IMG/VR virus record: IMGVR_UViG_3300028833_000001
Location: 127,171-191,170 of that record
Strand: one strand, 5' to 3'
Source: a virus
Lineage: Duplodnaviria; Heunggongvirae; Uroviricota; Caudoviricetes
DNA length: 64,000 nucleotides
The position numbers and the translations under genes were made by a program. The notes beneath the pieces are model-generated. The model had not been told where the DNA came from. It saw nothing but the letters and a program-made list of their open reading frames with translations, and did no database searches. This document shows positions 12,703 through 26,977 of this stretch, piece by piece (the stretch's first letter is position 1; the number at the start of each line of letters is the position of its first letter).

Positions 12703-12751
12703 AATCTATAAATTTTAATTGTGAATACTAAATTTGTTTGTACAGCATATA

Positions 12752-12844: not shown

Positions 12845-13040
12845 AAATAAAGGGTGTGACGGAGTATACTCTCCTACTCATTTTAAGTGTGACGGAGTAT
12901 ACTCTCCTATCCATTTTACACACATTTAATCCAATGTTCAGCCCTTTTCGGAGCGACCCGCTCCTTACTGCCCCTATGTCCTATGCTATTATGGCGGTTT
13001 CATTGCTGATGATTTAAGTTAGACAATCAGTTTACAATTC
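12845..13040 (-). ncRNA. candidate small non-coding RNA downstream of a perfect-consensus promoter; contains a 2 x 33-bp tandem repeat and a GGAGCG..CGCTCC hairpin, and ends in a T7 run
   Basis: There is no minus-strand ORF of 60 aa or more between the promoter at 13047-13063 and the next promoter at 12752. The repeats GTGTGACGGAGTATACTCTCCTA(C/T)(T/C)CATTTTA lie at 12854-12886 and 12887-12918. Confidence 0.35.
12854..12918. repeat. 33-bp direct tandem repeat, 2 copies, each with an internal GGAG..CTCC hairpin
   Basis: Seen directly in the sequence. Confidence 0.8.
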
Positions 13041-13046
13041 TCTATA

Positions 13047-13063
13047 TGCAAAAAGCGTGCCAA
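13047..13063 (-). promoter_or_regulatory. sigma-54-type promoter motif (perfect consensus) with no protein gene downstream
   Basis: TTGGCACGCTTTTTGCA, part of a ~65-bp cassette repeated at 13955-14030 and 18940-19015. Confidence 0.5.
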
Positions 13064-13107
13064 ACCCATATTAGGAATGGCACGCTGACAACAATTAAAA
13101 TTAAGAT

Positions 13108-13923: not shown

Positions 13924-13969
13924 ACTTTTTGAATTTTAATTGTAAATATTAATTTGTCACTACCATATA

Positions 13970-13986
13970 TACAAAAAGCGTGCCAA
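13970..13986 (-). promoter_or_regulatory. sigma-54-type -24/-12 promoter motif
   Basis: TTGGCACGCTTTTTGTA, 47 nt upstream of the ATG at 13923. Confidence 0.5.
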
Positions 13987-14027
13987 ACTTATTATGAGTG
14001 ACACGCTGACAACAATTAAAATTAAGA

Positions 14028-14885
14028 TTATTCAATGTATCTCACCTCAACCTTTCCTTCCCAAATGTCATCACCATCCCTCTTATCGTAAATCGTGTAC
14101 TTGGTTGAATTTGAATCTGCGGTTGACATTTCAAATATTTCATCTTCGTCATAAAAAAGGCTAAAAAGGTTATCCACTTTTTTCTTTTCCTCAATCAAGG
14201 CGTCAGAGGCATCGTCATATTCTTCAAAGAGACGAAATGCAAATTCGGGAGAAAAATGCCCTCCGCCATACCACTTTGATGAAAATGCCCAAACCTTTTT
14301 ATGGTTGAACAACGGTTCGTTAGGGTTGTCAATGTTGTACTTGATTTGGTATTGGATAATCATTTCACCGTTGATAATCTTTGCCAAGTGGCAAAGACCA
14401 ACTTTATCGTAAAGATAGGCTACCACTTTTTGTAACTGCTCACAAGAAAGTCTAACACCACTTGTTAGTTTTTTTGCCGCTACAAATGCCATTGTTCTGT
14501 GGAGTTTATGGTTTATAAACTTTTCAATCTCATTGTAATCGTCAATATTCGGGTATTCTTCCGTGTTATACTCACTCACAATGTCATAGATAATGTCATA
14601 GTAAAGGCTTGCCTCAACCACATTTTCGCAGTAGTGTTCAACAATCTTGTGCGCAATAAAATCGTGCAAACTCATCTCAACCTCATCAATTGTGGCTTCG
14701 CATACGTTTTGAATGTAGCACCCATAATCGTTCTCATCAACAACGAAGTCAATAGTGCTTGATGACCCAATTGCATCATCAACTTTCCCTTTCATATAGA
14801 TTTGTGCCAATTTCATCGTTGGATGTACCTCAACCTGCTTTTCGCTGTTTTTCAAATTCGTGAAAGTCAATACATAAATTTTCAT
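14028..14885 (-). CDS. hypothetical protein; its C-terminus resembles that of 19864..20760
   Basis: ...DIWEGKVEVRYIE compares with ...DVWEGRIRKIYVQE. Confidence 0.55.
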   Translation of the reverse strand: MKIYVLTFTNLKNSEKQVEVHPTMKLAQIYMKGKVDDAIGSSSTIDFVVDENDYGCYIQNVCEATIDEVEMSLHDFIAHKIVEHYCENVVEASLYYDIIYDIVSEYNTEEYPNIDDYNEIEKFINHKLHRTMAFVAAKKLTSGVRLSCEQLQKVVAYLYDKVGLCHLAKIINGEMIIQYQIKYNIDNPNEPLFNHKKVWAFSSKWYGGGHFSPEFAFRLFEEYDDASDALIEEKKKVDNLFSLFYDEDEIFEMSTADSNSTKYTIYDKRDGDDIWEGKVEVRYIE

Positions 14886-14932
14886 AATCTATAAATTTTA
14901 ATTTGTAAATAATGAATTAACGTGTTGTGTTA

Positions 14933-14949
14933 TGCAAATAATGTGCCAA
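14933..14949 (-). promoter_or_regulatory. sigma-54-type -24/-12 promoter motif
   Basis: TTGGCACATTATTTGCA, 48 nt upstream of the ATG at 14885. Confidence 0.5.
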
Positions 14950-14952
14950 ATT

Positions 14953-15531
14953 TTAATTCAACCGTGCGACAAGTTTTCCACAATACATCATCACATCACC
15001 ATAGTGGATTTTTTCATCATCGGGCAAGCCACGATACTCTCTGATAGCATCTACCATAGCCTCATCTTTGACAACCTCAGCCATTTTCGGATAAGTCAAA
15101 ATAATAGTGGATGGGTCTGTTTTTTCAAGTGCGTAAGCAAGAGCAGCACCATCGGCACACTCAACAGTATATTCGTGTTCTTCATCATCACCGAAAAAAT
15201 CATTATCGCAGAACATCACACTGTCTTCGCGGACAACACCACTTGCACATTGGTCTGACACAATGTCAGAATTGTCATCATCTGCCAAATTGTCATCATC
15301 ATAGGTTTCCTCAATAAAGTCGGCTGTTGCTTCTCCAAACTGAAATTCTCCGTTAGGGATTTCAACATATTCGGGAAATTCCGATAATGTTTCACAATTC
15401 AGTGCTTCATCTGCCTTGCACAAAGCGTCATACTCACTATCAGCCTTGACGTTCATATACCCATTATAAACGCAGGAGAGGCTTACACGATAGGTCTTTT
15501 GGCTCTTCTTGGTTTCGTTCTTTTTTGCCAT
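14953..15531 (-). CDS. hypothetical acidic protein
   Basis: 192-aa ORF. Confidence 0.5.
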   Translation of the reverse strand: MAKKNETKKSQKTYRVSLSCVYNGYMNVKADSEYDALCKADEALNCETLSEFPEYVEIPNGEFQFGEATADFIEETYDDDNLADDDNSDIVSDQCASGVVREDSVMFCDNDFFGDDEEHEYTVECADGAALAYALEKTDPSTIILTYPKMAEVVKDEAMVDAIREYRGLPDDEKIHYGDVMMYCGKLVARLN

Positions 15532-15564
15532 AATTCTAAAATTTTAATTGTTCACTATACTCTA

Positions 15565-15581
15565 TGCAAATACTATGCCAA
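15565..15581 (-). promoter_or_regulatory. sigma-54-type promoter motif (GC to AT variant at -24: TGGCAT)
   Basis: TTGGCATAGTATTTGCA, 34 nt upstream of the ATG at 15531. Confidence 0.4.
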
Positions 15582-15615
15582 AATTGCAAGATAGCCTTTC
15601 TCTCGGTGCTTATCT

Positions 15616-15882
15616 TTAATTATTTTCAATGTATTCTTTAACCATTTCAATTGCATCATCCAAATTTCGGGCATTTCCGATGGCTTCGTTCTCAATGCTT
15701 GGTTTTGATGAGTAATTGTCTGGCTCAATCACTACCGAACAATATTTATCATCACGGAGTATCACGTTTCCGTATGCAACACATAATTTGTTCCACGCAG
15801 TTACATATACCTTTAACGTGTATATATTGCCGTTTCTTTCAATGCTGATTGGTAAGGATTCAATGCTATTCATATTATTCAC
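15616..15882 (-). CDS. hypothetical protein
   Basis: 88-aa ORF. Confidence 0.4.
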   Translation of the reverse strand: MNNMNSIESLPISIERNGNIYTLKVYVTAWNKLCVAYGNVILRDDKYCSVVIEPDNYSSKPSIENEAIGNARNLDDAIEMVKEYIENN

Positions 15883-15923
15883 AAATCATTTTAATTTTTT
15901 TTTGTCGGTTTTTAAGTTATTAA

Positions 15924-16214
15924 TTATTCTTCATCCCAATTTGGCTCTTCCTCATAGGCATAGGTGCAAAGGTACATAACCTTTTTCGGTATTGTAATCG
16001 TTCTATCATCTCCTATGTCCATTTGTTCCCAAGATACGATATAAACAACCGATATAGAGAGAATTTCAACATTCTCCCCAAGTCTTTGTTTGAAATTCCA
16101 TACAATAGGGTTTTTAACCGCCTCGTTGCCGTAATTTCTGCGGATTTCTTCTTCGTTATGGACATAATAGTCCATCATACACATATCAGTTGCGACTTTC
16201 TTTATGTTTGCCAT
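15924..16214 (-). CDS. hypothetical protein
   Basis: 96-aa ORF. Confidence 0.4.
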   Translation of the reverse strand: MANIKKVATDMCMMDYYVHNEEEIRRNYGNEAVKNPIVWNFKQRLGENVEILSISVVYIVSWEQMDIGDDRTITIPKKVMYLCTYAYEEEPNWDEE

Positions 16215-16224
16215 AATTCTAATT

Positions 16225-16431
16225 TTAATTGTTGATAATATGTGGATATATGAAATTGTTTAAGATTAACCAATCACTTCCGCTATTCGCCAACTCACAA
16301 AATTCTTGCAATGTGAATATGTCACAATACTTTTCATTTGCTAATTCATATCTTTCATTAGATGACATTTTATCCAATTCTTCACGCTCAAAATCATCAG
16401 CACAAAATAATAAAATAATCGTTTTTTCCAT
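16225..16431 (-). CDS. hypothetical acidic protein
   Basis: 68-aa ORF. Confidence 0.35.
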   Translation of the reverse strand: MEKTIILLFCADDFEREELDKMSSNERYELANEKYCDIFTLQEFCELANSGSDWLILNNFIYPHIINN

Positions 16432-16445
16432 ATTTATCCTAAATT

Positions 16446-16865
16446 TTAATAGTTAAACAATTTCAAGGCACAATCCAATTCGTTTTTTTCATTGTTTAAT
16501 ATCAATAATTTGTTTCTCACCTCATTGTAACGTTTTGTTAATTCTTTTTTTATTGCTTTAATCCTGCCATCCTTATATTCATCTTCTTCTTCTTCCAATC
16601 TAACCCAAAAATATCTATTGCATTGGTCAACAATTGAGTATGCTTGCAATTCAAATGTATGTTTGCCGTTCTCCATAGGGTATTCATACAATTTAGCATT
16701 ATCAATATCATAATCTTCGGAATTAATTTTAGTAAAGCAAAGATAATGTTTGATGATTGCGTTAGAACTATTGTCGTTGGCAAGATTGATATTGTATTTG
16801 TTCAATATCTCCAAATCCCAATCAACCCTTTTATTAAACTCTTGTATAAAATTTTCTATTGTCAT
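16446..16865 (-). CDS. hypothetical protein
   Basis: 139-aa ORF with a degenerate motif at 16882-16900. Confidence 0.45.
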   Translation of the reverse strand: MTIENFIQEFNKRVDWDLEILNKYNINLANDNSSNAIIKHYLCFTKINSEDYDIDNAKLYEYPMENGKHTFELQAYSIVDQCNRYFWVRLEEEEDEYKDGRIKAIKKELTKRYNEVRNKLLILNNEKNELDCALKLFNY

Positions 16866-16898
16866 AATTCTAATTATTATATTTCCCCTATATACAAA

Positions 16899-17233
16899 TC
16901 ACCAAATTTTACGAAATTTTGTTGTCCGTATTCTGCGTCCTACACCATAGTTTTCGTTGTGTACTCTTTCATCTTTGCAGATATAGACATCGCCAACAAG
17001 AATGGGATGCCCGAAACGAGGTACATATTCATTGTTCATCAACGATTCTTTGATATGAGGAAACAATTTATAAAAGTTTCCCCATACATTTTTGTTTCGT
17101 TTCAACGATGGCACTCTTATATTATATCCACAACTACAAGGTGTTCCGCTTGTGTTGTAGTAATCTTTGTTGTCCCGTCCTTTCTTTTCGTTATAAAAGA
17201 CAGTAGGATATTTTGCTCTTATTTTCTTTTTCA
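16899..17233 (-). CDS. hypothetical basic protein
   Basis: The track ORF starts with TTG inside the promoter motif, so the start was reset to the first ATG (VMKKKIRAKYP...). Confidence 0.4.
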
Positions 17234-17261
17234 TCACTTCAATTTTTATTCGTTTGCTATT

Positions 17262-17278
17262 ATACAAAAACTATGCCA
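17262..17278 (-). promoter_or_regulatory. sigma-54-type promoter motif (TGGCAT variant)
   Basis: TTGGCATAGTTTTTGTA, ~29 nt upstream of the ATG at 17233. Confidence 0.4.
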
Positions 17279-17555
17279 AAAGTTCCCTCAATGCCGAAAT
17301 AGTTTCATTGAATACTGATATTTTCTCTTCGTCAGTCATTCGGCAAAATGTCTTACCGAATTTGTATTTTGGATTATTATCCATTTGTTCAAGGCAAAGG
17401 TAATAAATAAATGGCGGATATTCACGCTCATTCTTACTCTTCAAAACCTCATCAAGCTCATTCTCCGCCAATGATATTGCCTTGTTGAAACAATCCTCGT
17501 CATTATCCAAATGATAGTTACGGACTAAATGAAATAAACTATTTTCGTTTACCAT
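17271..17555 (-). CDS. hypothetical protein
   Basis: 94-aa ORF. Confidence 0.4.
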   Translation of the reverse strand: MVNENSLFHLVRNYHLDNDEDCFNKAISLAENELDEVLKSKNEREYPPFIYYLCLEQMDNNPKYKFGKTFCRMTDEEKISVFNETISALRELLA

Positions 17556-17556
17556 A

Positions 17557-17787
17557 TTATTTCAGTTTTTCCAATATTTCTTCAATTCTTACACAATCTT
17601 TCGCATCAGCCAACCCATATTTATCCAACCTGCGAAATTCAATCTCATCACCATTGCAGATGTCGGCAACATAATCAACACCCAACGCTTGCGACACCTT
17701 TGAAGATAAAGATTGCATTGCAAGTTCAAGTTCGTTGCTCTTCTGCAAACACTTGGCATACGCTTTATTTATTTCACTCTTTGTCAA
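17557..17787 (-). CDS. hypothetical protein
   Basis: 76-aa ORF. Confidence 0.4.
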   Translation of the reverse strand: MTKSEINKAYAKCLQKSNELELAMQSLSSKVSQALGVDYVADICNGDEIEFRRLDKYGLADAKDCVRIEEILEKLK

Positions 17788-17796
17788 TGTGTTGTG

Positions 17797-18177
17797 TTAT
17801 TTTGTTGTGTACATATCCTCGGTGGCTTCCAATGCAAGCCCCATAGGAATTAAACCATAGTAATCAAAGTGATTGGAATTTAACCAATGTACCCAATTCA
17901 CTGCGTTTCGGTAATTGAAAATAGAGTTGGAATTGATAAATTTGTCATATTCGTATCTCTCCTCCATAGTCATAGATGACATTGGTCGTAGGTAGGGTTT
18001 AACATCAGTTAAATATACGGAATAGCAATCATCGGTTCTAAAAGAAATATTTGGGACTATACTTAAAATGCCTTGAATTGTTTGTGGTGTGTCGTGCCCT
18101 TTTACAAAAATTTTTACCCCATAAGGCAACATTGCACAAATGACTTGTAGTAACAATTCTTTTTCTTCTTGTGTCAT
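17797..18177 (-). CDS. hypothetical protein
   Basis: 126-aa ORF. Confidence 0.45.
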   Translation of the reverse strand: MTQEEKELLLQVICAMLPYGVKIFVKGHDTPQTIQGILSIVPNISFRTDDCYSVYLTDVKPYLRPMSSMTMEERYEYDKFINSNSIFNYRNAVNWVHWLNSNHFDYYGLIPMGLALEATEDMYTTK

Positions 18178-18220
18178 AATAATCTAAATTTTAATTAACG
18201 TTTGTTTTGAATTTTAATTA

Positions 18221-18478
18221 TTACAAATTATCCTCATCAGTTTCATTGTAGTCAGCGAGGCATCGTTCAATTGAAATATGAGCATCGCCAAAGCATATTT
18301 CATCATCCTTAAACGTTTCCCAATCGGTGATTGCCGTTTCTTTTATGTCCTCCACAACGTCATACAAATAATCTTTCGCAATGGTTTTTGCCTCTTCGTT
18401 GTCACATCCGAGACTTGTTTCGGCAAAGAAAAAAATCTCATCTTTTACCAATTCAATTTGTCTTTTTGTCAGTTCCAT
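18221..18478 (-). CDS. small hyper-acidic protein
   Basis: 85 aa with more than 30% D/E. Confidence 0.45.
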   Translation of the reverse strand: MELTKRQIELVKDEIFFFAETSLGCDNEEAKTIAKDYLYDVVEDIKETAITDWETFKDDEICFGDAHISIERCLADYNETDEDNL

Positions 18479-18496
18479 ATCATTTGTGTTTTTGGT

Positions 18497-18922
18497 TTAC
18501 AAATATTGCAGGATGGTGATGATTGCCTCACGCTTTTGGTCCTCATCATAAATCAAAATCTCCTCCGCATCCTTATCTGTGTATGGATTTCCGCTCCAAA
18601 AATAGATGTCAGCTCCGTTAGTAGTAACATTGGTAATTGTCGCTCCGTTGCATTTGATACCAAAATCTTCAACTGACAAATTGTCAGTATCAAACTCATC
18701 GAATTGGTCTCTCAATTCACATTCCAAGTTGAAAAGGCTTCGTTCATCGTCCCAAATTTCCATCAAGTCATCTCTTGTCTCCGCATCCTCAACGGAGCAG
18801 AGTTCAACAAAATCAAATTCAGCAGGGATGTTCATCATCTCAAATTTGCTTTTTATTTCAGCAATGGAGTCACCACTAAATTTCTTTGCCACTCTAAAAG
18901 TTACGATTGCTTGTTTTTCCAT
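18497..18922 (-). CDS. hypothetical acidic protein
   Basis: 141-aa ORF with the promoter motif 35 nt upstream. Confidence 0.5.
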   Translation of the reverse strand: MEKQAIVTFRVAKKFSGDSIAEIKSKFEMMNIPAEFDFVELCSVEDAETRDDLMEIWDDERSLFNLECELRDQFDEFDTDNLSVEDFGIKCNGATITNVTTNGADIYFWSGNPYTDKDAEEILIYDEDQKREAIITILQYL

Positions 18923-18956
18923 ACCATAAATTTTAATTGGTTAGACGCACCATATA

Positions 18957-18973
18957 TACAAAAAGCGTGCCAA
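18957..18973 (-). promoter_or_regulatory. sigma-54-type -24/-12 promoter motif within a repeated cassette
   Basis: TTGGCACGCTTTTTGTA. The flanking AATTGGTTAGACGC and CACGCTGACAACAATTAAAATTAAGATT are shared with other copies. Confidence 0.5.
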
Positions 18974-19013
18974 ACTTATAAAGCAGGCACGCTGACAACA
19001 ATTAAAATTAAGA

Positions 19014-19418
19014 TTATGATAAATTGATAGTATCTAAATCAATATTACAAATGTAGTCAAAATCTTCAAACCAATCCGATTTATGGTTGTAAACGGTCGG
19101 GTGCGTGTATGGTTTCATATCATCATTTAAGTAACAATATTGATAATAGTAACATTTGCCGTCTCTTGATGGTTTGGAATCAAGTATTGCTATATAATAT
19201 TGGTAATTTCGTAATGGTTCAAATGGATTGTTCGTATCACTAATATTGAAGCATCCATAAACTCCACCAATCTTCAATTGGTCTTTGTTATCATTTTTTT
19301 TCTTCTTGTCATTTATGTTTTCAACAATACATTCAATTGATTTGAATATGAAGAAAGAGAAAACAAGAACGACAAAATTGTAAATGATAAACGATAGTAA
19401 TGTAGTAAACGTAATCAT
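19014..19418 (-). CDS. membrane-anchored protein, tandem paralog of 19430..19852
   Basis: N-terminal TM helix, then IGGVYG...YYIAILDSKPSRDGKCYYYQY...DIDLDTINLS. Confidence 0.5.
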   Translation of the reverse strand: MITFTTLLSFIIYNFVVLVFSFFIFKSIECIVENINDKKKKNDNKDQLKIGGVYGCFNISDTNNPFEPLRNYQYYIAILDSKPSRDGKCYYYQYCYLNDDMKPYTHPTVYNHKSDWFEDFDYICNIDLDTINLS

Positions 19419-19429
19419 AAGTTTTTTGA

Positions 19430-19852
19430 TTATGAAACTTTTATGCTATTCAAGTCAATATCCTTTACATATTCCCAATTATCAAAATAATTTGTTTGAT
19501 TACTATAAATCATAGTGTCACTATAACTGCTATATGGTGACATATTGTCATTTAGAAAGACATATTGGCAGTATTCACAATGTCCATCCCTTGATGGTTT
19601 TATGTCAAGGATTGCCACATAATAACCATAGTCGTGAATAGGGGAAAATGGGTCATTATTATCACCATAAAATCGTCTTTTTCCATATATTCCACCAATA
19701 TTCAATGATGACTTGACTTTTTTCTCTTTTTGTATCTTCTTATTGCTCCTAATATTATCAATGATGTGGCGGAAAAATTTGAAAAATGTGATTGAAAACA
19801 CACTAATGAAGATTGTGAATGAAATAAATGATGGTATATTAAAGGTAATCAT
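19430..19852 (-). CDS. membrane-anchored protein, tandem paralog of 19014..19418
   Basis: IGGIYG...YYVAILDIKPSRDGHCEYCQY...DIDLNSIKVS. The start was set to the internal Met to avoid overlap. Confidence 0.5.
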   Translation of the reverse strand: MITFNIPSFISFTIFISVFSITFFKFFRHIIDNIRSNKKIQKEKKVKSSLNIGGIYGKRRFYGDNNDPFSPIHDYGYYVAILDIKPSRDGHCEYCQYVFLNDNMSPYSSYSDTMIYSNQTNYFDNWEYVKDIDLNSIKVS

Positions 19853-19863
19853 AATTTTAATTT

Positions 19864-20760
19864 TTATTCTTGAACGTAAATCTTTCTTATTCTTCCCTCC
19901 CACACATCAAGACGATAGGAATCCACAAAACTTACTTGGTATACGTCATCGGAACACCGATATGTGACGTTTTCGCCAACGTATTGACTATTGAATGCCT
20001 CAACGGCTTCTTCATATTTTTTCTTCATCGCAGCGGCAGCGGAAGCGTGAGACTTATAAACAGTTGTATCCTCTTCAAGACCAAATCTACTGCCATCCTC
20101 CCAAACCGATGTTGCGACATAGACATAATCTAAATTGAATACCACTTTACGTTGTTCCCTATTGATTTCACCCTTAACATCCTCAATGGCATCTTCTTCA
20201 CCATTGATTACAGCAAGAATTAATGACAATCCACGATTGTCCTTCAAATAATCGGCAACGATTTGGAAATATTTGTTTTGGAAATCATTGTCATAACCGC
20301 TAACAATTTTTGCTGCGGCACGTTTTGCAAACCTTTCCCTCAATTCGGTATCAACGAAATGCTCAATTTCTTCATCATAGAACGGCAAATCATTTTCGGT
20401 GTAACATAATAGTTCATACATAATCAGTTCACGATGCTCTTCGCAAGCACCCGAAAACATCATCACCTTATCAATGATTCTCTCCACTTGCATTTGGTAG
20501 GTGTCCATTGATGTTTGTTTGATTTCATACTCAACCCTATTACCATCGGAAATGGTGGCATAATCATTACCTTTCCAAACATCATACCCGTTGAAAACGA
20601 AATGCTCGCCTTTGCTTGCAAGTATATCTTTTTTAATTTTAATTTCACTTGCAACTTCTGCGAACATAACTTCTTGTGCTTGCGTAAAAGTTGGGAATGA
20701 CCAAACAAGCGTATCGTTATGCAGTTGAGTTCTGATGACATTAAAAATTTTAATCTTCAT
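19864..20760 (-). CDS. hypothetical protein
   Basis: 298-aa ORF with the promoter motif 52 nt upstream. Confidence 0.55.
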   Translation of the reverse strand: MKIKIFNVIRTQLHNDTLVWSFPTFTQAQEVMFAEVASEIKIKKDILASKGEHFVFNGYDVWKGNDYATISDGNRVEYEIKQTSMDTYQMQVERIIDKVMMFSGACEEHRELIMYELLCYTENDLPFYDEEIEHFVDTELRERFAKRAAAKIVSGYDNDFQNKYFQIVADYLKDNRGLSLILAVINGEEDAIEDVKGEINREQRKVVFNLDYVYVATSVWEDGSRFGLEEDTTVYKSHASAAAAMKKKYEEAVEAFNSQYVGENVTYRCSDDVYQVSFVDSYRLDVWEGRIRKIYVQE

Positions 20761-20811
20761 AATCTTATATTTTTAATTGTTGATGATTTGAATTACTTGT
20801 GTTGTGCTATA

Positions 20812-20828
20812 TGCAATTATTGTGCCAA
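20812..20828 (-). promoter_or_regulatory. sigma-54-type -24/-12 promoter motif
   Basis: TTGGCACAATAATTGCA with the upstream GTTGTGCTATA element. Confidence 0.5.
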
Positions 20829-20829
20829 A

Positions 20830-21057
20830 TTAAAAATAGTAACTCACCTCATCCTCATTAAAAGATGTTCCGTTTTCGTTGTTGTAGTCTTCAATTGCAA
20901 GTGATGGGATGTAGGATTCACCTGCAAGTTCAAACTTGCCATTCTTAATGAGTTCCTCCAAAACTGAATTGTCATCGGCAGATAACAATTTTTTGATTGT
21001 ATCTTCATCTGCCTTTATGTCAACACCTACTCTCATCCAAATTTTTTGTTCTTGCAT
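20830..21057 (-). CDS. hypothetical acidic protein
   Basis: 75-aa ORF. Confidence 0.4.
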   Translation of the reverse strand: MQEQKIWMRVGVDIKADEDTIKKLLSADDNSVLEELIKNGKFELAGESYIPSLAIEDYNNENGTSFNEDEVSYYF

Positions 21058-21104
21058 AATACTGAATTTTAATTGTGAATATTAATTTTAAGTGTTGTGC
21101 TATA

Positions 21105-21121
21105 TGCAATTATTGTGCCAA
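21105..21121 (-). promoter_or_regulatory. sigma-54-type -24/-12 promoter motif
   Basis: TTGGCACAATAATTGCA, 48 nt upstream of the ATG at 21057. Confidence 0.5.
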
Positions 21122-21271
21122 CTTACCTGCGCCTCCAATATAATTTTCCGATGAGGTGTTTTCTATTTGATGGCTCAATGATAAACCATTTCCACCATTC
21201 AAGTCTTCCGATATTGATATACTCCCCTACAATCAGTTGAGGGCGGCTCGCCATAGCGATTATGTCATCCA

Positions 21272-21481
21272 TTATTCGTTACCACCATTAAGTTCAAGGT
21301 AAATGTCAGTACACATATCGTCAAAATTGGTTGTGCCGTCATTATAATCATCAAGGACTTCAATGATGGTTTCGTAGTCGCTATCAGCGTCAAGGTTGTC
21401 GGAAATGAGGTTGTTAATTCTAACAATGTCATCTTCACCCAATTCAAGGGCGAATGAATAATCTCTAATAATTTCTTCCAT
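21272..21481 (-). CDS. small hyper-acidic protein
   Basis: 69 aa, extremely D/E-rich. Confidence 0.4.
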   Translation of the reverse strand: MEEIIRDYSFALELGEDDIVRINNLISDNLDADSDYETIIEVLDDYNDGTTNFDDMCTDIYLELNGGNE

Positions 21482-21494
21482 AATGTTATTAATT

Positions 21495-21728
21495 TTAATT
21501 AAACAAATTCATAAATCTACTTTCAAAATCTCTTAAAGTATCTTCGGCAAAATCATCCCACCAATCTTCGCGCTGGCAAGCGCGCAAATATGTAATATTT
21601 GCAACAATATTATTATACTCTTCACAAAACCGTTTTTTCTCCACATTTCGTTTTAAGTTAATGGTTGCCAATGTAATGAAGAAAATTACAATCAATGATA
21701 AGATGATGATTAAAATTATAATTGTCAT
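21495..21728 (-). CDS. small membrane protein
   Basis: N-terminal TM helix. Confidence 0.4.
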   Translation of the reverse strand: MTIIILIIILSLIVIFFITLATINLKRNVEKKRFCEEYNNIVANITYLRACQREDWWDDFAEDTLRDFESRFMNLFN

Positions 21729-21763
21729 ATTCTTATTCTTTTTGCGATATTACAAATATTAAA

Positions 21764-22012
21764 TTAATTTTCAAAATATAAAAAATTCTCAATGCCATCA
21801 ATATCCTCGCAAGAACCGAGAAATTCGTCATTCTCATATACGTTGTACCCACCAACGATGTCGGGTTCAATTGTATAATCATCCTCCCAATAATACGGCT
21901 CTACCGATAGAGTTCTATCGTCAACTTCAAAATAGACGTTGAAGCATTCGCCAACTTTCGGTTGGTATTCGTTGAGGTTTTCGGAATTGATGGTTACGAT
22001 GTTCTTACTCAT
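21764..22012 (-). CDS. small acidic protein
   Basis: 82-aa ORF with the promoter motif 38 nt upstream. Confidence 0.45.
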   Translation of the reverse strand: MSKNIVTINSENLNEYQPKVGECFNVYFEVDDRTLSVEPYYWEDDYTIEPDIVGGYNVYENDEFLGSCEDIDGIENFLYFEN

Positions 22013-22049
22013 AGTGATAAAATTTTAATTGGTTAGACGCTATCATATA

Positions 22050-22066
22050 TGCAAAAAGCGTGCCAA
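22050..22066 (-). promoter_or_regulatory. sigma-54-type -24/-12 promoter motif (perfect consensus)
   Basis: TTGGCACGCTTTTTGCA. Confidence 0.5.
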
Positions 22067-22112
22067 ACCGTTTGACACGCTTAACTGACACATTGGCATT
22101 TGATTTGTGACA

Positions 22113-22379
22113 TTATGGCATAAATGCCATAGAAATCGCTTCTTTTAACTTGTTTTGGTAGTCATCTTCGTTATCGGTGTCATATTCAAACCAACCGACA
22201 ATTTCACCATCAAAATATAGTGTTGCAGCATCTCCGTCATATTCTACTTCAACCAATCCACAGTCGGTTGTTGATAGGTCTTCAAGCGCGTCCTGCTTCT
22301 CTCCATAGACAATAATTGTGTTGTCATCAAAGCAAAGAGGCGTTTTATCTTCTTTAATGATAATGTAATCAATAACCAT
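22113..22379 (-). CDS. small acidic protein
   Basis: Start set at the internal Met (MVIDYIII...) preceded by CAATTAAAATTA. Confidence 0.4.
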   Translation of the reverse strand: MVIDYIIIKEDKTPLCFDDNTIIVYGEKQDALEDLSTTDCGLVEVEYDGDAATLYFDGEIVGWFEYDTDNEDDYQNKLKEAISMAFMP

Positions 22380-22383
22380 AATT

Positions 22384-23169
22384 TTAATTGTTTTTTGAAT
22401 ATTCTTTAATCGCTCCCTCAATCGCTTCTTTCACCTCTTCATAGGTGCAACGTACAGAAGCGTCAAACGTGTACTCCATAGCGTATTTTCCTGCGATTTG
22501 AGAGATTTTTTCATCCTCATTGGTATTGTCGGTCAATGAGGACTTAAACACCGCCAAATACTCCGTTTTTTTCTTTTCAGTAAAATCATCAATAAAATCG
22601 TAATAGTCAGTAAAGTCATCATCATCTCTTTCTTCCCACAACTTTTCCGCCTGCAATGCCCAATCTTGGATTTTACCGACAATAACATCTCTCGGAATGT
22701 CGGTTGTTGATGATATTTCCTCAAAACATTGCAGGGCAATCTCAATGCAGTTCTCCTGCACACGCAGGTTACGATAATGTGCGTCCAAATCAATCGGATT
22801 TTTGACGGGAGGAATAATGGCATCACGAACGGACTTACAAGCCTCCATATCTCCACGCATAGTGGCATAGAGCAAGTCAATCCAACTGACATTATGCAAG
22901 TCCATAAGGTTTCTTGCTTTCTCACCATCCATAAAATTGTTAAAGTCATCAATAGTTACGTTGCAATTGTCAGCACCGATTTGACGGAATGTACCCATCA
23001 AATCTTCAAAAACGAAGAGTTCTATTGACTTTTCGTATAATTCAGAATCGGAATAGTGTTCAAGTGCTTGAATCACCACTTCTTTGGTTATAGTGGTTTT
23101 AGCGTTCGGGTATCTATCTTTGAGATAGGAAATGATGACTTCTGCCATTGAATTTTTAATTTCACTCAT
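22384..23169 (-). CDS. hypothetical protein
   Basis: The first ATG at 23196 is only 10 nt from the promoter motif, so the second Met (MSEIKN...) is the likelier start. Confidence 0.5.
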   Translation of the reverse strand: MSEIKNSMAEVIISYLKDRYPNAKTTITKEVVIQALEHYSDSELYEKSIELFVFEDLMGTFRQIGADNCNVTIDDFNNFMDGEKARNLMDLHNVSWIDLLYATMRGDMEACKSVRDAIIPPVKNPIDLDAHYRNLRVQENCIEIALQCFEEISSTTDIPRDVIVGKIQDWALQAEKLWEERDDDDFTDYYDFIDDFTEKKKTEYLAVFKSSLTDNTNEDEKISQIAGKYAMEYTFDASVRCTYEEVKEAIEGAIKEYSKNN

Positions 23170-23205
23170 AATCACTAAATTTAATTGGTTAGGCATTATC
23201 CATTA

Positions 23206-23222
23206 TGCAAAAAGCGTGCCAA
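23206..23222 (-). promoter_or_regulatory. sigma-54-type -24/-12 promoter motif (perfect consensus)
   Basis: TTGGCACGCTTTTTGCA. Confidence 0.5.
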
Positions 23223-23301
23223 AAATACAAATTGTCATATAAAAAAAACCCACCATTTAGGTGGGTTACATTCATATCACACAAAACCACTCAGAGGTCT
23301 A

Positions 23302-23817
23302 TTACTTGTTGATGGTATTGACAATACCACGGATAAGACTGACAACGTTGTCACGCAAATCTGCCACGCTGTCAGTATGTAACATTTCGGCAGCCTCCAA
23401 TTCAGCTTCGCGATTATCCAATTCAGCTCCACGAGCATTCAGTTCCTCTTCACGCTCATCAAGGTCAATCTCTCGTTCGTCCAATTCAGCATCTCTAACG
23501 TTGAGGTCGTGTTCCCTACCATCAAGTTCATCTTCTCTTGCGTCAAGTTCCTCCTTGCGCTCATCATAGTTGTGACAACAAGTGTTCTCACAAACTTCAT
23601 CATCGCACTCGTCACCATCAACGGAAAGAATGTCCTTCGCCAACTTGATGTAGCGTTCAATCGAAGTGTTGTCGGTAGCAGGTGCAGATTTCGGCATAAT
23701 CGCCTTGATGACGATAGCGTCAAGCATTGAATCAAGCATCATAATGTCCGTGATGGACATATTAGCAATAGCATTCATAATTCCGTTAATAACCATCTTC
23801 TTAATGTTGTTCTTCAT
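23302..23817 (-). CDS. coiled-coil protein with tandem heptad repeats (ELDxREx) x ~7
   Basis: LDAREDELDGREHDLNVRDAELDEREIDLDEREEELNARGAELDNREAELEAAE. Confidence 0.5.
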   Translation of the reverse strand: MKNNIKKMVINGIMNAIANMSITDIMMLDSMLDAIVIKAIMPKSAPATDNTSIERYIKLAKDILSVDGDECDDEVCENTCCHNYDERKEELDAREDELDGREHDLNVRDAELDEREIDLDEREEELNARGAELDNREAELEAAEMLHTDSVADLRDNVVSLIRGIVNTINK

Positions 23818-23867
23818 ACTTTTGAAATTTTAATGTTTATAAAAAATTGTTATTGGATTTTGTTCTA

Positions 23868-23884
23868 TGCAACTATCGTGCCAA
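23868..23884 (-). promoter_or_regulatory. sigma-54-type promoter motif adjacent to the palindromic hairpin (23888-23907)
   Basis: TTGGCACGATAGTTGCA, 51 nt upstream of the ATG at 23817. Confidence 0.5.
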
Positions 23885-23915
23885 AATGGGTACGCAAATG
23901 CGTACCCTATATTTT

Positions 23916-24602
23916 TTAATATCCGTAGTTGTAAATCATATTGGAGTAATTGAAATTGACAAAGTTAATAGTATCGTCATATTCCAACTTCTCAATGAAA
24001 TCCTGCGGCTCAACTCCCTCATTGATGAAAGTGTTGATTTGCTCGCAGAAATGGATATTCTGCTCATCAACCTCTTCGGTTGTATGTGCACCAAATGAGA
24101 GGCATCTTGCCTCCGATGGATTGCTGACAAACATATAGGTAAAGAAACCACGTAGCTTGTAGCGTGTAGCGAACTCGGAGGCATAGCACCATATACCAAT
24201 AATCTCTCTATAACGCAGTAAATCCACGTTGTCGGCATCAATGATATATGGAGACATCCTGCTATAACCAACCGCAATGTCAGCGTCGAGACAATATTGA
24301 CCGCTCATATCCATACAATCACCATAAATGGCATCGTAATAGGTATCATAGTCCATAATATCGTCCAAGTCGGAATATTGATTGTTAATAACCTCAATGT
24401 CATCATCGGCACGGAAAAGACCGCTGCCAGTTCCGTGACCAAGAAATAGACACGTTTCATAGGGTCTATTGCGTAAGACCTCTTCCAATTCAGACCTCTT
24501 TGGGTTGACCAATACAATGTTGTCGGGATTGGCTGACAAATTGTCAAAGAGACGTGACATAATGTCGGTGTCGTGTTGTGTGTTAATGTGTACAGCTATC
24601 AT
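23916..24602 (-). CDS. hypothetical protein
   Basis: 228-aa ORF. Confidence 0.5.
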   Translation of the reverse strand: MIAVHINTQHDTDIMSRLFDNLSANPDNIVLVNPKRSELEEVLRNRPYETCLFLGHGTGSGLFRADDDIEVINNQYSDLDDIMDYDTYYDAIYGDCMDMSGQYCLDADIAVGYSRMSPYIIDADNVDLLRYREIIGIWCYASEFATRYKLRGFFTYMFVSNPSEARCLSFGAHTTEEVDEQNIHFCEQINTFINEGVEPQDFIEKLEYDDTINFVNFNYSNMIYNYGY

Positions 24603-24667
24603 AACTCTATCTAATGATTTTTAATATTATTATACAAACTTTTTTCTTGTCTGCCAAATATACCTTA

Positions 24668-24684
24668 TTCAAATATAGTGCCAA
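24668..24684 (-). promoter_or_regulatory. degenerate sigma-54-type motif (TGGCACT-N4-TTGAA) adjacent to the palindromic hairpin (24690-24708)
   Basis: Minus-strand TTGGCACTATATTTGAA, 66 nt upstream of the ATG at 24602. Confidence 0.3.
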
Positions 24685-24714
24685 ACTTTGGGTACGCAAG
24701 TGCGTACCTAAAAA

Positions 24715-25071
24715 TTAAAGATATTGTTCAATGCTTTCGCAAAGGCAATAAAGAGTTGGAGAGACACAGCACATACCGCCGAATATGGAATACCAACCAT
24801 CATCGTTTAGTACCTCATCATCGGTCATACCATCCAAACTTTCGTTAGAAGAAGCAGGCAGCACACACACTTCACCATCAAATAAAGCAACCGCAAGCAC
24901 TTTGTTTTCGGTGGTTGTCTCCAACGCTTCATCAAAGATGTAGCAGTAGATAGTGTCTTTGTACCAATCTTCATCGGTACGGATAAGCCCGTTGTGTTGT
25001 CTTAAAACGTCCGCCACAGCGTCATTCATACGCTTGTTGAGGGCAATTTGCTCATTAAGTAAATCAGTCAT
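24715..25071 (-). CDS. hypothetical acidic protein
   Basis: 118-aa ORF. Confidence 0.5.
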   Translation of the reverse strand: MTDLLNEQIALNKRMNDAVADVLRQHNGLIRTDEDWYKDTIYCYIFDEALETTTENKVLAVALFDGEVCVLPASSNESLDGMTDDEVLNDDGWYSIFGGMCCVSPTLYCLCESIEQYL

Positions 25072-25105
25072 AACTTTGAAATTTTGTTGAACACTAAATT
25101 GTCAA

Positions 25106-25122
25106 TACAATAATCGTGCCAA
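25106..25122 (-). promoter_or_regulatory. sigma-54-type -24/-12 promoter motif, the first (most upstream) of the array
   Basis: TTGGCACGATTATTGTA, 35 nt upstream of the ATG at 25071. Confidence 0.45.
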
Positions 25123-25129
25123 ACTATAT

Positions 25130-25770
25130 TATATATGGACTGACAATGTGCTATACTGACAACTGACAAAGTGTCATACTGACAAAGTGTCAGGTACTCC
25201 CACCTATATGGGTAGGGTATGGTAGGTGTCCCCTCCCTCCCTAACTCCCCGCAGGCAAAAACCCAAAATAGCACCGCACAGTTGCTTCCGAGAATTTTAC
25301 CCAATTTTTTCGATTTTTCCAGGGGGGGGTCTTTTTTTATTCAAAAGGTACTCCTTTTTTCAAAAATTTTCCATATAAAAATTTCAATTTTTCAAAGTGT
25401 GGGCCAATTTAATTTCAATAGGTACTCCTTTTTCAAAAAAAATTCCACATATAAATTTTCAATTAAATTTCGGCTTTATACGTTGATTATTAAAATTTTT
25501 GTTAATGACATAGACGTTGACCTATAGATAATAAAAAAGGGCGAATCTCTCAGATTCACCCGTTATACAAACAGTTTTGTTGTATATTCCATCCAATCTC
25601 AAATGGATAGAGCTGCACCATTACGAAGTTTTATATTTCATTATTAATTTACTAATACTATTATACAATAAAATAAATTAAAATCCAAACCATTTTCACA
25701 ACATAAATTTAATTTCAATAGGTACTACTTTCTGAAAAAATTTTCCATGGTAAAAATTTGAATTAAGATT
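25130..25770. repeat. non-coding region with iteron-like direct repeats: 3 copies of ~50 bp (GGTACTCCTTTTTTCAAAAATTTTCCATATAAAAATTTCAATT) at ~25347-25395, 25404-25470 and 25704-25770; ACTGACAA x4 at 25139-25190; a C-rich block and a G8 tract
   Basis: Seen directly in the sequence. It separates the promoter array from the next gene block, so it is a candidate origin or regulatory region. Confidence 0.6.
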
Positions 25771-26977
25771 AATTAAAATCTTTTATTACTTTGGATAAAA
25801 ACGATTTATCGTCAATATTTTTTGAATTTTTGATTTTGTTTATAGCCAAGTGTAATCTTGAATCATACCTATACTGTTGTATTTGTTGTAATTTTCGTAT
25901 TGATGTTATGTCAAATGTTGATAAAACATCGTAAGTGTTTTTTGTAATATAATCTTTAAAAGCGTCAGACATTTTTCTAATTGTTTCACAAGCATGATTA
26001 TTTCTATAATCTATGGCATCTTGTAGGTTGTCAAAGCAACCGACATTAGTAATTGCTGCACCGTGTTTATCTTTTTCATGTTCAGTAGTTGTTGCAATCC
26101 AACGCCCATCATCAGTATGTCTGATACATTGGCCAACATAATAATACTTATCACCAAATTTTTTAAAATCTTCCTCATTTAATGCATAATTTGCGACATT
26201 TTGAACTCTTCTGTTTAGTGCTTCTGGCAAGTAGCATATTGTATCTGGTCCTAAGGGTTGCTTCTCAAGTCTTAATACATCACAATTAACGCCCATTGGA
26301 TATTTCTGACTTTTTGGTTTATGTTTTTTAACATATTCATAAAATGAATATAAGTCATCGAAATTACCATAATCAGCAGGTTGTTTTGTTTTTGAAATTA
26401 TATTAGAATAGAAAAAATTAAAATCATCAATCATCACATAATGAGAATTTTGTTTATTTTGATTGGTTTGTTTTTCTTGAACGTTAACAGTTTGTTTTAA
26501 GGTAGGTTGTTTGGTTTCTTGTTTCTTTTTATTTTTCTGATTTTCTTCTAATTTTTCTAATTTTTGTTTAATGTCTTTTATTGTTTTAATAAGGTATTCC
26601 ACATCACATTTGAACCATTCGTTTCCAAAGTTGGCTCTTTCAATGTTGTTTTCTAAAAGATGTTTGTGTATTGTTTTGTCTGTAATGCGCATCCATTGCT
26701 GTTTTCTACCAGACCAATACATAGCGCTTTCCGTATAGAGTAGAACATAATCAATACCCGCTGTTTTTGTATATGTGTCAATTCTAGCTATAGCACATTT
26801 ATTTAACGATTCGCTGTTTGGTTTGTCAAGCATGTTGCTTGGGTCGGCAAAAGAAGTTTCGCCGATTTTAATATAACAATTATGCTTTTCATCTGGAATG
26901 GTAAAAGCATATATCAATTTTGGATTGTGATTATGTTCATATCGAGCCATTAATAGAAAAATAAAATTAAAATCCAA
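25769..26977 (-). CDS. GIY-YIG/T5orf172-like N-terminal domain protein with a Lys-rich linker and an unknown C-terminal domain
   Basis: N-terminus LIYAFTIPDEKHNCYIKIGETS resembles the GIY-(10)-YIG module. Linker: KLEKLEENQKNKKKQETKQ. Confidence 0.35.
   Translation of the reverse strand: MDFNFIFLLMARYEHNHNPKLIYAFTIPDEKHNCYIKIGETSFADPSNMLDKPNSESLNKCAIARIDTYTKTAGIDYVLLYTESAMYWSGRKQQWMRITDKTIHKHLLENNIERANFGNEWFKCDVEYLIKTIKDIKQKLEKLEENQKNKKKQETKQPTLKQTVNVQEKQTNQNKQNSHYVMIDDFNFFYSNIISKTKQPADYGNFDDLYSFYEYVKKHKPKSQKYPMGVNCDVLRLEKQPLGPDTICYLPEALNRRVQNVANYALNEEDFKKFGDKYYYVGQCIRHTDDGRWIATTTEHEKDKHGAAITNVGCFDNLQDAIDYRNNHACETIRKMSDAFKDYITKNTYDVLSTFDITSIRKLQQIQQYRYDSRLHLAINKIKNSKNIDDKSFLSKVIKDFN

What the first reader, a model, noticed from the sequence alone, without database searches (positions are those of the whole stretch)
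25130..25770. Iteron-bearing boundary region between the promoter array and the next gene block
Three ~50-bp direct repeats (GGTACTCCTTTTTTCAAAAATTTTCCATATAAAAATTTCAATT), four ACTGACAA repeats, a C-rich tract (CCCCTCCCTCCCTAACTCCCC) and a G8 run lie in 640 bp with no credible ORF. The region sits at the point where promoter orientation and architecture change. It is a candidate replication origin or master regulatory region.
Basis: seen in the sequence. Interest (0 to 1): 0.55.

Follow-up and report, generated by a model that had tools for sequence, protein, structure and literature searches.

The report
Control region heading a phage promoter array
This 700-base gene-free stretch of a ~360-kb rumen megaphage is most likely the conserved control region in front of the first of 17 sigma-54-type promoters, with later duplications and a small RNA gene inserted beside it, and the tests that could be run do not support a replication origin.

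Summary
The interpretation needs revising.

**Position.** The gap (25072-25768) lies between two minus-strand genes. Gene orientation switches at about 29.0 kb, not here. Promoter type does change here.

**The layers of the region:**
- **ACTGACAA repeats.** These are TGTCAG units, partly dyad-symmetric. They start 18 nt upstream of the first of 17 sigma-54-consensus promoters. The same motif is about 5-fold enriched upstream of those promoters across the clade. They are probably activator sites.
- **Conserved block.** It contains one ~60-nt repeat (R1), an A7 run, the window's only G/C run of 7 or more, phased A/T tracts and the window's only G-quadruplex motif. It is found in every relative that covers this stretch. 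It is 93-100% identical where the neighbouring genes are 87-88%. No conserved ORF, RNA covariation or Rfam match was found. Its function is unknown. My best guess is curved, protein-bound DNA.
- **Extra repeats R2 and R3.** These are lineage-specific. Copy number is 3, 2 or 1 in different lineages. In the window they bracket a lineage-specific insert holding a promoter, a 123-nt structured RNA and a terminator.
- **Left edge of R1.** It adjoins a hypervariable island of selfish genes.

**Origin hypothesis.** The skew minimum is at 28 kb, the ~60-nt repeats are not iteron-like, and no replication gene was recognised nearby. An origin is not excluded.

The parts
25106..25121 (-). First (most upstream) sigma-54-type promoter of the array, TGGCACGATTATTGTA (-24 GG, -12 GT). 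It drives the 118-aa gene that starts at 25071.
   Evidence: Consensus scan: 17 hits, all on the minus strand, 5704-25121; shuffles give a mean of 1.55. The same element heads the array in L015, L017 and L020.
25139..25192 (-). It holds 7 half-sites at about 8-bp steps, including two perfect TGACA-N3-TGTCA dyads in a 16-bp tandem. Proposed activator/regulator binding sites for the promoter.
   Evidence: Relatives carry 2-7 units. TGTCA is enriched upstream of the -24 elements: 14 against 2.9 expected in the window, and similar in 6 relatives.
25193..25229 (-). Small hairpin (CCTACC-CATATA-GGTGGG, 25199-25216) followed by the conserved GGTGGGAG. The L015 and L010 lineages carry an extra insert of about 100 nt here.
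   Evidence: The hairpin arms differ between lineages, and helix support is weak.
25230..25250 (-). It fits the G-quadruplex motif.
   Evidence: It is the only G3+N1-7 x4 motif in the 64 kb. It is identical in W, L008, L015 and L010, and is GGGAGGG(N)GGG in L018 and L020.
25251..25321 (.). Conserved core with helically phased A/T tracts, containing TCGGAAG...TGTGCGG.
   Evidence: It is 98-100% identical to L015 and L010, where the adjacent genes are 87-88%. It lies in the top 0.1-0.2% of the window for 9.5-11.5-bp phasing and for density of A4+/T4+ tracts.
25322..25338 (.). G8 run (C8 on the minus strand) joined to a T7/A7 run.
   Evidence: It is the only G/C homopolymer of 7 or more in the window. 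Relatives have C8-C10 or CCCCCACC, always next to A6-7.
25332..25392 (-). R1, the ancestral copy of the ~60-nt repeat. It forms the left edge of the conserved block.
   Evidence: It is present next to the C run in every relative that reaches this far, at 93% identity in L015 and L010 and 78% in L018. The sequence to its left is unrelated in each lineage.
25406..25466 (-). R2, an extra copy that is part of a 74-nt tandem duplication with R1.
   Evidence: It is absent from the relatives; L015 has a different extra copy, and L017 and L018 have none.
25531..25688 (-). Lineage-specific small transcription unit. It has a promoter TTGGAT-N17-TATAAT with an upstream TG (25688-25660), an RNA of about 123 nt (about 25653-25531) and an intrinsic terminator (stem 25561-25539 plus a T run). 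Candidate small RNA, or possibly a 21-codon micro-ORF.
   Evidence: The promoter class is shared with the tRNA-Gly promoter at 7122 and others. Terminator. Fold energy z = -4.0, with 0 of 200 shuffles as stable. It is found only in the same phage, L001-L003.
25706..25766 (-). R3, an extra copy abutting the stop codon of the T5orf172-domain gene. Together with R2 it brackets the 239-bp insert.
   Evidence: It shares an identical 21-nt stretch with R2.
25769..26977 (-). 402-aa gene with a T5orf172 (GIY-YIG-like) nuclease domain. Probable selfish or homing-type gene and the first gene of the low-GC variable island.
   Evidence: Pfam PF10544, E = 1.8e-4, above the family cut-off. GC falls from 0.39 to 0.305 across the boundary. 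The island's gene content differs in L015 and L017.

Best explanation
The gap is a layered, cis-acting head region of a long minus-strand array of small genes. Most of these genes have their own sigma-54-type promoter. The description below runs in the direction of transcription.

**1. Conserved block of about 200 nt.** In order, it contains R1, an A7 run, a C8 run, phased A/T tracts, a conserved core, a G tract and a small hairpin. I infer that it acts as DNA: an intrinsically curved, protein-bound element that flanks the enhancer and separates the array from the island upstream.

**2. Cluster of TGTCAG units.** I infer that these bind the activator or regulator of the array promoters, in the manner of an upstream activating sequence.

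**3. The first promoter, TGGCACG-N4-TTGT.**

**4. The extra repeats R2 and R3.** These are not iterons. They are lineage-specific duplications of the R1 and C-run unit, made at a recombination-prone junction. In this phage they bracket an inserted small RNA gene and abut a selfish nuclease gene.

**What is shown:** the anatomy, the conservation, the uniqueness of the block, the promoter association of TGTCAG, and the lineage-specific nature of R2, R3 and the insert.

**What is inferred:** protein binding, the enhancer function and the architectural role of the block.
For: **The promoter array**
- 17 matches to the sigma-54 consensus lie on one strand and end at 25121. Shuffles give 1.55.
- The same arrays occur in L015, L017, L020, L022 and L038.

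**TGTCAG units belong to the promoters**
- TGTCA occurs 14 times in the 90 nt upstream of the -24 elements, against 2.9 expected. The first promoter has the most copies.
- The enrichment holds in all 6 relatives tested.
- A second promoter, at 12767, has the same layout of TGTCAG/TGCCA repeats followed by CATATATAATAAG.

**The conserved block**
- Where the contig reaches it, the block always lies directly upstream of the first array promoter.
- It is 93-100% identical where the adjacent genes are 87-88%.
- It contains the window's only G/C run of 7 or more and its only G4 motif.
- It is at the extreme of the window for A/T-tract phasing and density.
- A-tracts in the window are replaced by T-tracts at the same positions in L018. 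This fits a constraint on DNA shape rather than on sequence.

**R2, R3 and the insert**
- R copy number is 3, 2 or 1 in different lineages.
- The insert is absent from relatives.
- To the left of R1 lie unrelated selfish genes: T5orf172 in the window, GIY-YIG in L017, an IS1595 transposase in L015.
Against: - No enhancer-binding protein was found. There is no GAFTGA motif anywhere in the six-frame translation of the window. Only 64 of about 360 kb were searched.
- The TGTCAG units lie 18-71 nt upstream of the -24 element. That is closer than classical enhancers.
- The curved block lies upstream of the units, not between them and the promoter. It therefore cannot act as a looping bend of the IHF type.
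- Nothing shows that any protein binds R1 or the G tract.
- Curvature and a G-rich tract would fit an origin equally well.
- Only about five lineages are available, and only one (L017/L018) is divergent and complete.
Confidence: 0.4

Rival explanations
1. Replication origin. The TGTCAG units, or the R copies, act as iterons for a phage initiator. The AT-rich R region melts. The G-rich non-template tract downstream stabilises an R-loop primer, as at ColE1 or mitochondrial CSB II (both recalled from memory).
For: - The noncoding block is unique in the window and conserved.
- It has short repeated units, curved DNA and a GC-rich/AT-rich juxtaposition.
- The cumulative skew curve flattens starting here.
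Against: - The skew minimum is at 28.0 kb and the strand switch at 29.0 kb.
- TGTCAG units also occur at other array promoters.
- R copy number and spacing are not conserved.
- Twelve places in the window are more AT-rich.
- No replication or initiator gene was recognised within about 20 kb.
Confidence: 0.15
2. The conserved block encodes an RNA. This could be a leader or small RNA transcribed toward the array, for example a put/nut-like antitermination element that lets polymerase read through the hairpins between array genes. Alternatively it could be a plus-strand RNA ending at the G8 and U7 runs.
For: - Conservation is higher than in the neighbouring genes.
- The C run can pair with the G tract in every lineage.
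- G8 followed by T7 is conserved and resembles a terminator on the plus strand.
- A comparable noncoding stretch with tandem hairpins follows the promoter at 13062.
Against: - The minus-strand consensus fold has no compensatory pairs. The plus-strand fold has five, but its covariation term is unfavourable (+0.76). In both, the inner helices break in L018.
- Single-sequence folds are no better than shuffles, with z between +0.6 and -2.0.
- There is no Rfam match.
- No recognisable promoter lies upstream in either orientation.
- The 3' part is deleted in the window relative to L015 and L010.
Confidence: 0.15
3. Genome end or packaging signal. The array of small genes, each with its own promoter, would be the first DNA to enter the cell. 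The block would mark a physical terminus or a pac/cos site.
For: - Four independent contigs begin within 11 nt of each other, at positions equivalent to window 25279-25289 (L004, L008, L020 and the right half of scaffold L017).
- The element is unique, repeat-rich and curved.
- By analogy (from memory), repeat-rich noncoding DNA lies at the edge of the early region in T5.
Against: - Eleven other contigs run through the site, including two of more than 300 kb, where it lies mid-contig.
- The break in L017 has a 55-nt overlap flanked by homopolymers of variable length. That is typical of assembly-graph branching.
- No terminase gene was recognised nearby.
Confidence: 0.07
4. Evolutionary debris. 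The repeats are relics of gene starts left by recombination, with no function of their own. The 5' part of R resembles the array's leader motif plus an ATG.
For: - R begins with AATTGAAAATTTATATG, close to the leader AATTAAAATTTATAGATTATG. The core motif AATTAAAATT occurs 45 times in the window, against 3.7 expected.
- The mini-ORFs in R are not conserved.
- R2 and R3 are lineage-specific.
Against: - R1 plus the core is more conserved than the neighbouring coding DNA.
- It is retained in every lineage, including the 57%-identity one.
- This reading fits R2 and R3, which the main explanation already treats as duplications. It does not fit R1 and the core.
Confidence: 0.1

Closest known systems
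Upstream activating sequences (enhancers) of sigma-54 promoters, e.g. NtrC or NifA sites (established knowledge, from memory)
   Same: - Dyad-symmetric sites are clustered upstream of a GG-N10-GC/GT promoter.
- The same motif recurs at co-regulated promoters.
- Bent DNA lies nearby.
   Different: - The sites are only 18-71 nt from the -24 element.
- In L018 the units are direct repeats rather than dyads.
- No enhancer-binding protein was identified.
- The system is viral, with 17 or more promoters in 20 kb.
Iteron-type origins (lambda ori, P1 oriR, theta plasmids; from memory)
   Same: - Short repeated units lie beside A-tract curvature and an AT-rich stretch.
- The locus is unique in the sequence available.
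   Different: - The repeat motif is not unique to the locus.
- The ~60-nt repeats vary in number and spacing.
- There is no adjacent initiator gene.
- There is no skew inflection.
Promoter-stem-loop cassettes (PeSL) in the hyperplastic regions of T4-type phages (from memory)
   Same: - Repeated regulatory units lie between small early genes.
- They act as recombination joints.
- Selfish nuclease genes and variable cassettes accumulate at such joints.
   Different: - The promoter class here is sigma-54-like.
- The conserved block at the head of the array has no counterpart in T4.
Repeat-rich noncoding region at the edge of the T5 first-step-transfer (pre-early) DNA (from memory)
   Same: A long noncoding, repeat- and palindrome-rich stretch borders an array of early genes.
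   Different: - In T5 it lies at the distal end of the transferred segment and is tied to DNA entry.
- Here it lies upstream of the array, and no link to entry is shown.

Membership tests
Iteron-type replication origin | Three or more short direct repeats, with number and helical spacing conserved among relatives | tested here: not met
   R copies number 3, 2 or 1, with spacing of 74 and 300 nt. TGTCAG units are 16-bp tandems, but their number varies from 2 to 7 and they also occur at other promoters.
Iteron-type replication origin | Adjacent, exceptionally AT-rich unwinding element | tested here: inconclusive
   The R region is 16-30% GC, but 12 other 120-nt windows in the 64 kb are more AT-rich.
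Iteron-type replication origin | Initiator or replication genes next to the origin | tested here: not met
   No replication domain was found in genes from 22 to 38 kb. The nearest helicase (UvrD-type) is at 47.8 kb. Many of the proteins have no annotation at all.
Iteron-type replication origin | Strand-composition inflection at the site | tested here: not met
   The cumulative G-C minimum is at 28.0 kb and gene orientation switches at 29.0 kb. Only 64 of about 360 kb were available.
Iteron-type replication origin | Origin activity (marker frequency, initiator binding) | not testable with these tools
   This needs sequencing reads or experiments.
Sigma-54 promoter with upstream enhancer | -24 GG and -12 GC/GT elements with exact spacing | tested here: met
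   TGGCACGATTATTGTA at 25121-25106. Sixteen further matches lie on the same strand, and the arrays are conserved in relatives.
Sigma-54 promoter with upstream enhancer | Repeated, dyad-symmetric sites upstream, shared by co-regulated promoters | tested here: met
   Two perfect TGACA-N3-TGTCA dyads are present. TGTCA is 4-6-fold enriched upstream of the -24 elements in the window, L015, L017 and L020, and about 3-fold in L022, L038 and L043.
Sigma-54 promoter with upstream enhancer | Cognate AAA+ enhancer-binding protein (GAFTGA loop plus DNA-binding domain) | tested here: not met
   The six-frame translation of the window has no GAFTGA motif. The PF00158 hit in the 849-aa protein is better explained as ClpB. 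The rest of the genome and the host were not searched.
Sigma-54 promoter with upstream enhancer | Dependence on sigma-54 holoenzyme | not testable with these tools
   This needs in vitro transcription or host genetics.
Structured noncoding RNA (conserved block) | Conserved secondary structure supported by compensatory changes | tested here: not met
   RNAalifold was run on both strands. The minus-strand fold has no compensatory pairs. The plus-strand fold has five pairs with a double change, but its covariation term is unfavourable (+0.76). The inner helices break in L018 in both. Only 5 sequences from 3-4 lineages were available.
Structured noncoding RNA (conserved block) | Match to a curated RNA family | tested here: not met
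   No Rfam match at gathering thresholds. At E up to 10 there are only chance-level hits.
Small RNA gene (insert 25531-25688) | Own promoter, intrinsic terminator and a stable fold | tested here: met
   Promoter TTGGAT-N17-TATAAT with an upstream TG. Terminator with 10 pairs plus T6. Fold energy z = -4.0.
Small RNA gene (insert 25531-25688) | Conservation in relatives | tested here: not met
   It is present only in the same phage, L001-L003. It has no match in IMG/VR.
cos/pac packaging site | Physical DNA end or read-start pile-up, with a terminase gene nearby | tested here: inconclusive
   Four contigs start within 11 nt of each other, but most contigs run through the site. No terminase gene was recognised nearby. 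Reads were not available.

The most novel reading that the evidence does not exclude
The conserved block (R1, C8 run, curved core and G-quadruplex tract) is a single-copy master element of a ~360-kb rumen megaphage. It would govern the whole sigma-54-type gene array. It could be a transcription-primed replication origin, or an entry or loading site from which an activator reaches the 17 or more downstream promoters. Either would be a kind of phage control element not yet described.
Probability: 0.15. Interest if true: 0.7.

Novelty: new variant of a known kind. Interest (0 to 1): 0.45.

Why it matters
Megaphages related to the Lak group are uncultured, and nothing is known about how they time gene expression or start replication.

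This region gives a concrete, conserved and unique piece of DNA to test. It sits at the head of an array of sigma-54-type promoters, a promoter class that three full-text literature searches did not link to phage gene arrays.

If the TGTCAG units are activator sites, they define the regulator's target and could be used to find the regulator.

The conserved block also appears to attract selfish nuclease genes. That marks it as a sequence the phage cannot afford to change.

If the origin or master-element reading were right, it would be the first cis-acting control element defined for this phage group.

Tried and rejected
- **Close DNA relatives in annotated phages.** None found with megablast or distant blastn.
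- **Exact-pattern scans.** Probes were the R repeat, the conserved core and the G tract, against IMG/VR. The core was also scanned against JGI metagenomes, giving one chance hit in a high-GC SMC-like gene. The G tract was scanned against GTDB genomes with no result.
- **Protein-based search with the 118-aa gene in IMG/VR.** Nothing.
- **Relatives.** They came only from the protein database plus exact-protein look-ups. L022, L025 and L045 are not syntenic at this locus. L023 and L024 are bacterial.
- **R as a promoter.**
  - Sigma-70 spacing fails.
  - The Bacteroidetes -33/-7 pattern fails.
  - The sigma-54 GG-N10-GC rule fails in every copy. All three were read directly from the sequences.
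- **R as a protein-coding repeat or leader peptide.** The mini-ORFs are not conserved.
- **The 102-codon ORF at 25219-25527.** It is not kept in L015 or L018.
- **RNA structure of the block.** No support.
- **The two nuclease genes beside R in the window and in L017.** They are unrelated.

Full report
**Setting**

The window comes from a contig of about 360.7 kb (ENA ERZ27257202 k141_2937494). The same sequence appears in several other assemblies. Overall GC is about 33%.

The window encodes a sigma-70-family protein, a ClpB-like ATPase, a UvrD helicase, a TnpB and a tRNA-Gly. One neighbouring protein hits the Lak megaphages of Prevotella weakly. No annotated phage is close at the DNA level.

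The finding covers the 697-bp gap at 25072-25768. This gap lies between two minus-strand genes: a 118-aa gene (24715-25071) and a 402-aa gene with a T5orf172 nuclease domain (25769-26977). Gene orientation therefore does not change here. It changes at 28948/29096.

**Observation**

- The three ~60-nt repeats (R1-R3) match a 23-nt probe found nowhere else in the 64 kb.
- ACTGACAA occurs four times in 47 bp, where 2.6 copies are expected in the whole window.
- The G8 run is the only G/C homopolymer of 7 or more in the window.
- The C-rich tract, read on the other strand, is the window's only canonical G-quadruplex motif.

**What lies to the left**

The "promoter array" consists of 17 matches to the sigma-54 consensus TGGCACG-N4-TTGC(A/T).
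- All 17 are on the minus strand, from 5704 to 25121. Shuffles give 1.55.
- The last copy, at 25121-25106, is the promoter of the 118-aa gene.
- The same arrays occur in all related contigs.

To the right of the gap, promoters are of a different type, TTGG(A/T)T-N17-TATAAT. This type is also used by the tRNA gene.

**The ACTGACAA repeats**

On the transcribed strand these read as TGTCAG(T). They include two perfect TGACA-N3-TGTCA dyads in a 16-bp tandem. The nearest unit ends 18 nt upstream of the -24 element.

Several observations tie them to the promoters:
- Relatives keep 2-7 units at the same place.
- TGTCA occurs 14 times in the 90 nt upstream of the window's 17 promoters, against 2.9 expected. 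Seven of the 17 promoters carry it.
- The enrichment holds in six relatives.
- The promoter at 12767 has the same layout.

The repeats therefore belong to the promoter system. They are most simply read as binding sites for its activator or regulator. No such protein was identified, and there is no GAFTGA motif in the window.

**The conserved block**

All relatives that reach this far share one module directly upstream of the first array promoter. These are L006/L007/L015/L016, L009-L013 and L017/L018. L008 and L020 share its right half.

In order, the module contains:
1. one R copy
2. an A6-7 run
3. a C8-10 run
4. A/T tracts
5. a TCGGAAG...TGTG core
6. a GGGAGGG(N)GGG(G) tract
7. a small hairpin followed by GGTGGGAG
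8. the TGTCAG units

Between the window and L015 or L010, R1 and the core are 93-100% identical. The adjacent genes are 87-88% identical. This points to purifying selection on noncoding DNA.

I found no evidence that the block encodes a protein or a structured RNA.
- No ORF is conserved.
- There is no Rfam match.
- Single-sequence folds are no better than shuffles.
- Consensus folds give no convincing covariation. The minus-strand fold has no compensatory pairs. The plus-strand fold has five, with an unfavourable covariation term. The inner helices break in L018 in both.

Other evidence points to DNA shape.
- The block is in the top 0.1-0.2% of the window for helical phasing of A/T tracts, and it has the window's highest tract density.
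- A-tracts in the window are replaced by T-tracts at the same positions in L018.

I therefore favour a role as DNA: curved and protein-bound. This is an inference.

**The extra repeats**

R copy number is 3 in the window, 2 in the L015 lineage (with a different extra copy) and 1 in L017/L018. Spacing in the window is 74 and 300 nt. These are not iterons.

R2 and R3 bracket a 239-bp insert found only in this phage. The insert holds:
- a promoter of the tRNA type
- an RNA of about 123 nt that folds far better than shuffles (z = -4.0)
- a strong terminator

It is a candidate small RNA. A 21-codon ORF is also possible.

**The junction**

To the left of R1, each lineage has different DNA:
- the T5orf172 gene in the window
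- an unrelated GIY-YIG/DUF723 gene ending exactly at R in L017
- an IS1595 transposase and a 618-aa gene in L015

GC drops from 0.39 to 0.305 across this point. R1 is thus the fixed edge of a hypervariable island of selfish genes.

The 5' part of R resembles the array's leader motif. That motif, AATTAAAATT, occurs 45 times in the window against 3.7 expected. It may serve as a recombination joint.

**The origin hypothesis**

The evidence against an origin is as follows.
- The cumulative G-C minimum is at 28.0 kb. The curve is flat from 25.8 to 29 kb and rises after the strand switch.
- No replication gene was recognised nearby.
- The repeat motif is not unique to the locus.

The block's uniqueness, curvature and G-rich tract would still suit an origin. 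I keep this reading at 0.15.

**Unexplained**

Four independent contigs begin at positions equivalent to window 25279-25289. Branching of the assembly graph between strains is the simplest cause. A DNA end cannot be excluded without the reads.

**Verdict**

This is a real, conserved, composite control region at the head of a sigma-54-type promoter array, with lineage-specific duplications and an inserted small RNA gene. The available tests do not support the origin reading. The function of the conserved block remains open.

Noticed in passing
window 5704-25121, minus strand: There are 17 matches to the sigma-54 -24/-12 consensus (TGGCACG-N4-TTGC[A/T]), each in front of a small gene. Shuffles give 1.55. 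Similar arrays occur in relatives, with 18-20 matches in 12-14 kb in L022, L038 and L043. Three full-text literature searches found no paper linking sigma-54 promoters to megaphage gene arrays.
   Followed up: partly
L027-L030, L032, L035-L037, L039, L042 (IMG/VR 3300045988, about 11 kb each): These small phi29-like phages encode a Phi29-type capsid protein, a connector, a Gp16 ATPase and a protein-primed type-B DNA polymerase. L027 has 131-nt inverted terminal repeats. They carry the same TTTGGCACGCTTTTTGCATA promoter motif at both ends, reading inward. Two unrelated phage groups therefore use this promoter, which points to a host polymerase holoenzyme.
   Followed up: partly
window 12703-13107, minus strand: This is a second long gap inside the array. 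The promoter at 13062 is followed by about 220 nt of noncoding sequence. That stretch contains a GGAGCG-GGT-CGCTCC hairpin, two tandem copies of GGAGAGTATACTCCGTCACAC and a T run (fold z = -2.8). TGTCAG/TGCCA repeats and the promoter at 12767 come next. It is possibly a promoter-driven noncoding RNA.
   Followed up: partly
window 3821, 4333, 7039, 7841, 11514, 23888, 24690: A hairpin, GGGTACGC-N3/4-GCGTACCC, recurs between array genes. It often abuts the next promoter's TTTGGCAC. It is likely a gene-end terminator unit.
   Followed up: no
window 1000-22400, mostly minus strand: AATTAAAATT occurs 45 times against 3.7 expected. In the promoter contexts printed it lies shortly upstream of the start codon. 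No Shine-Dalgarno sequence is visible in those contexts. It may be a translation-initiation or recombination-joint motif.
   Followed up: no
window-equivalent 25279-25289 in L004, L008, L020 and L017: Four independent contigs or scaffold pieces start within 11 nt of each other inside the conserved core.
   Followed up: no
L015 9203-9348; L010 equivalent: These lineages carry an insert of about 100 nt between the G tract and the TGTCAG units. With the flanking G tract, the stretch contains five copies of (A/C)(G/T)TTAGGG, one of them inverted, and a GGGGA-GTATG-TCCCC hairpin. The insert is missing from the window.
   Followed up: no
window 43098-44369 (+); L015 6114-6929: The window carries a TnpB/IS605 OrfB-type gene. 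A relative carries an IS1595 transposase with its own sigma-54-like motif upstream at 6972.
   Followed up: no
L023, L024: A bacterial homologue of the phage 228-aa protein sits next to NT5C, VWA and a 1106-aa UvrD/HRDC helicase, in a sugar-catabolism neighbourhood. The window also encodes NT5C-domain and UvrD-type proteins, at 38999-39910 and 47782-49365.
   Followed up: no
window 55401-55719 and 60977-61256: An 18-nt-period coding repeat lies in a collagen-like 604-aa protein. Acidic D/E-rich 21-nt repeats lie in a 624-aa protein.
   Followed up: no
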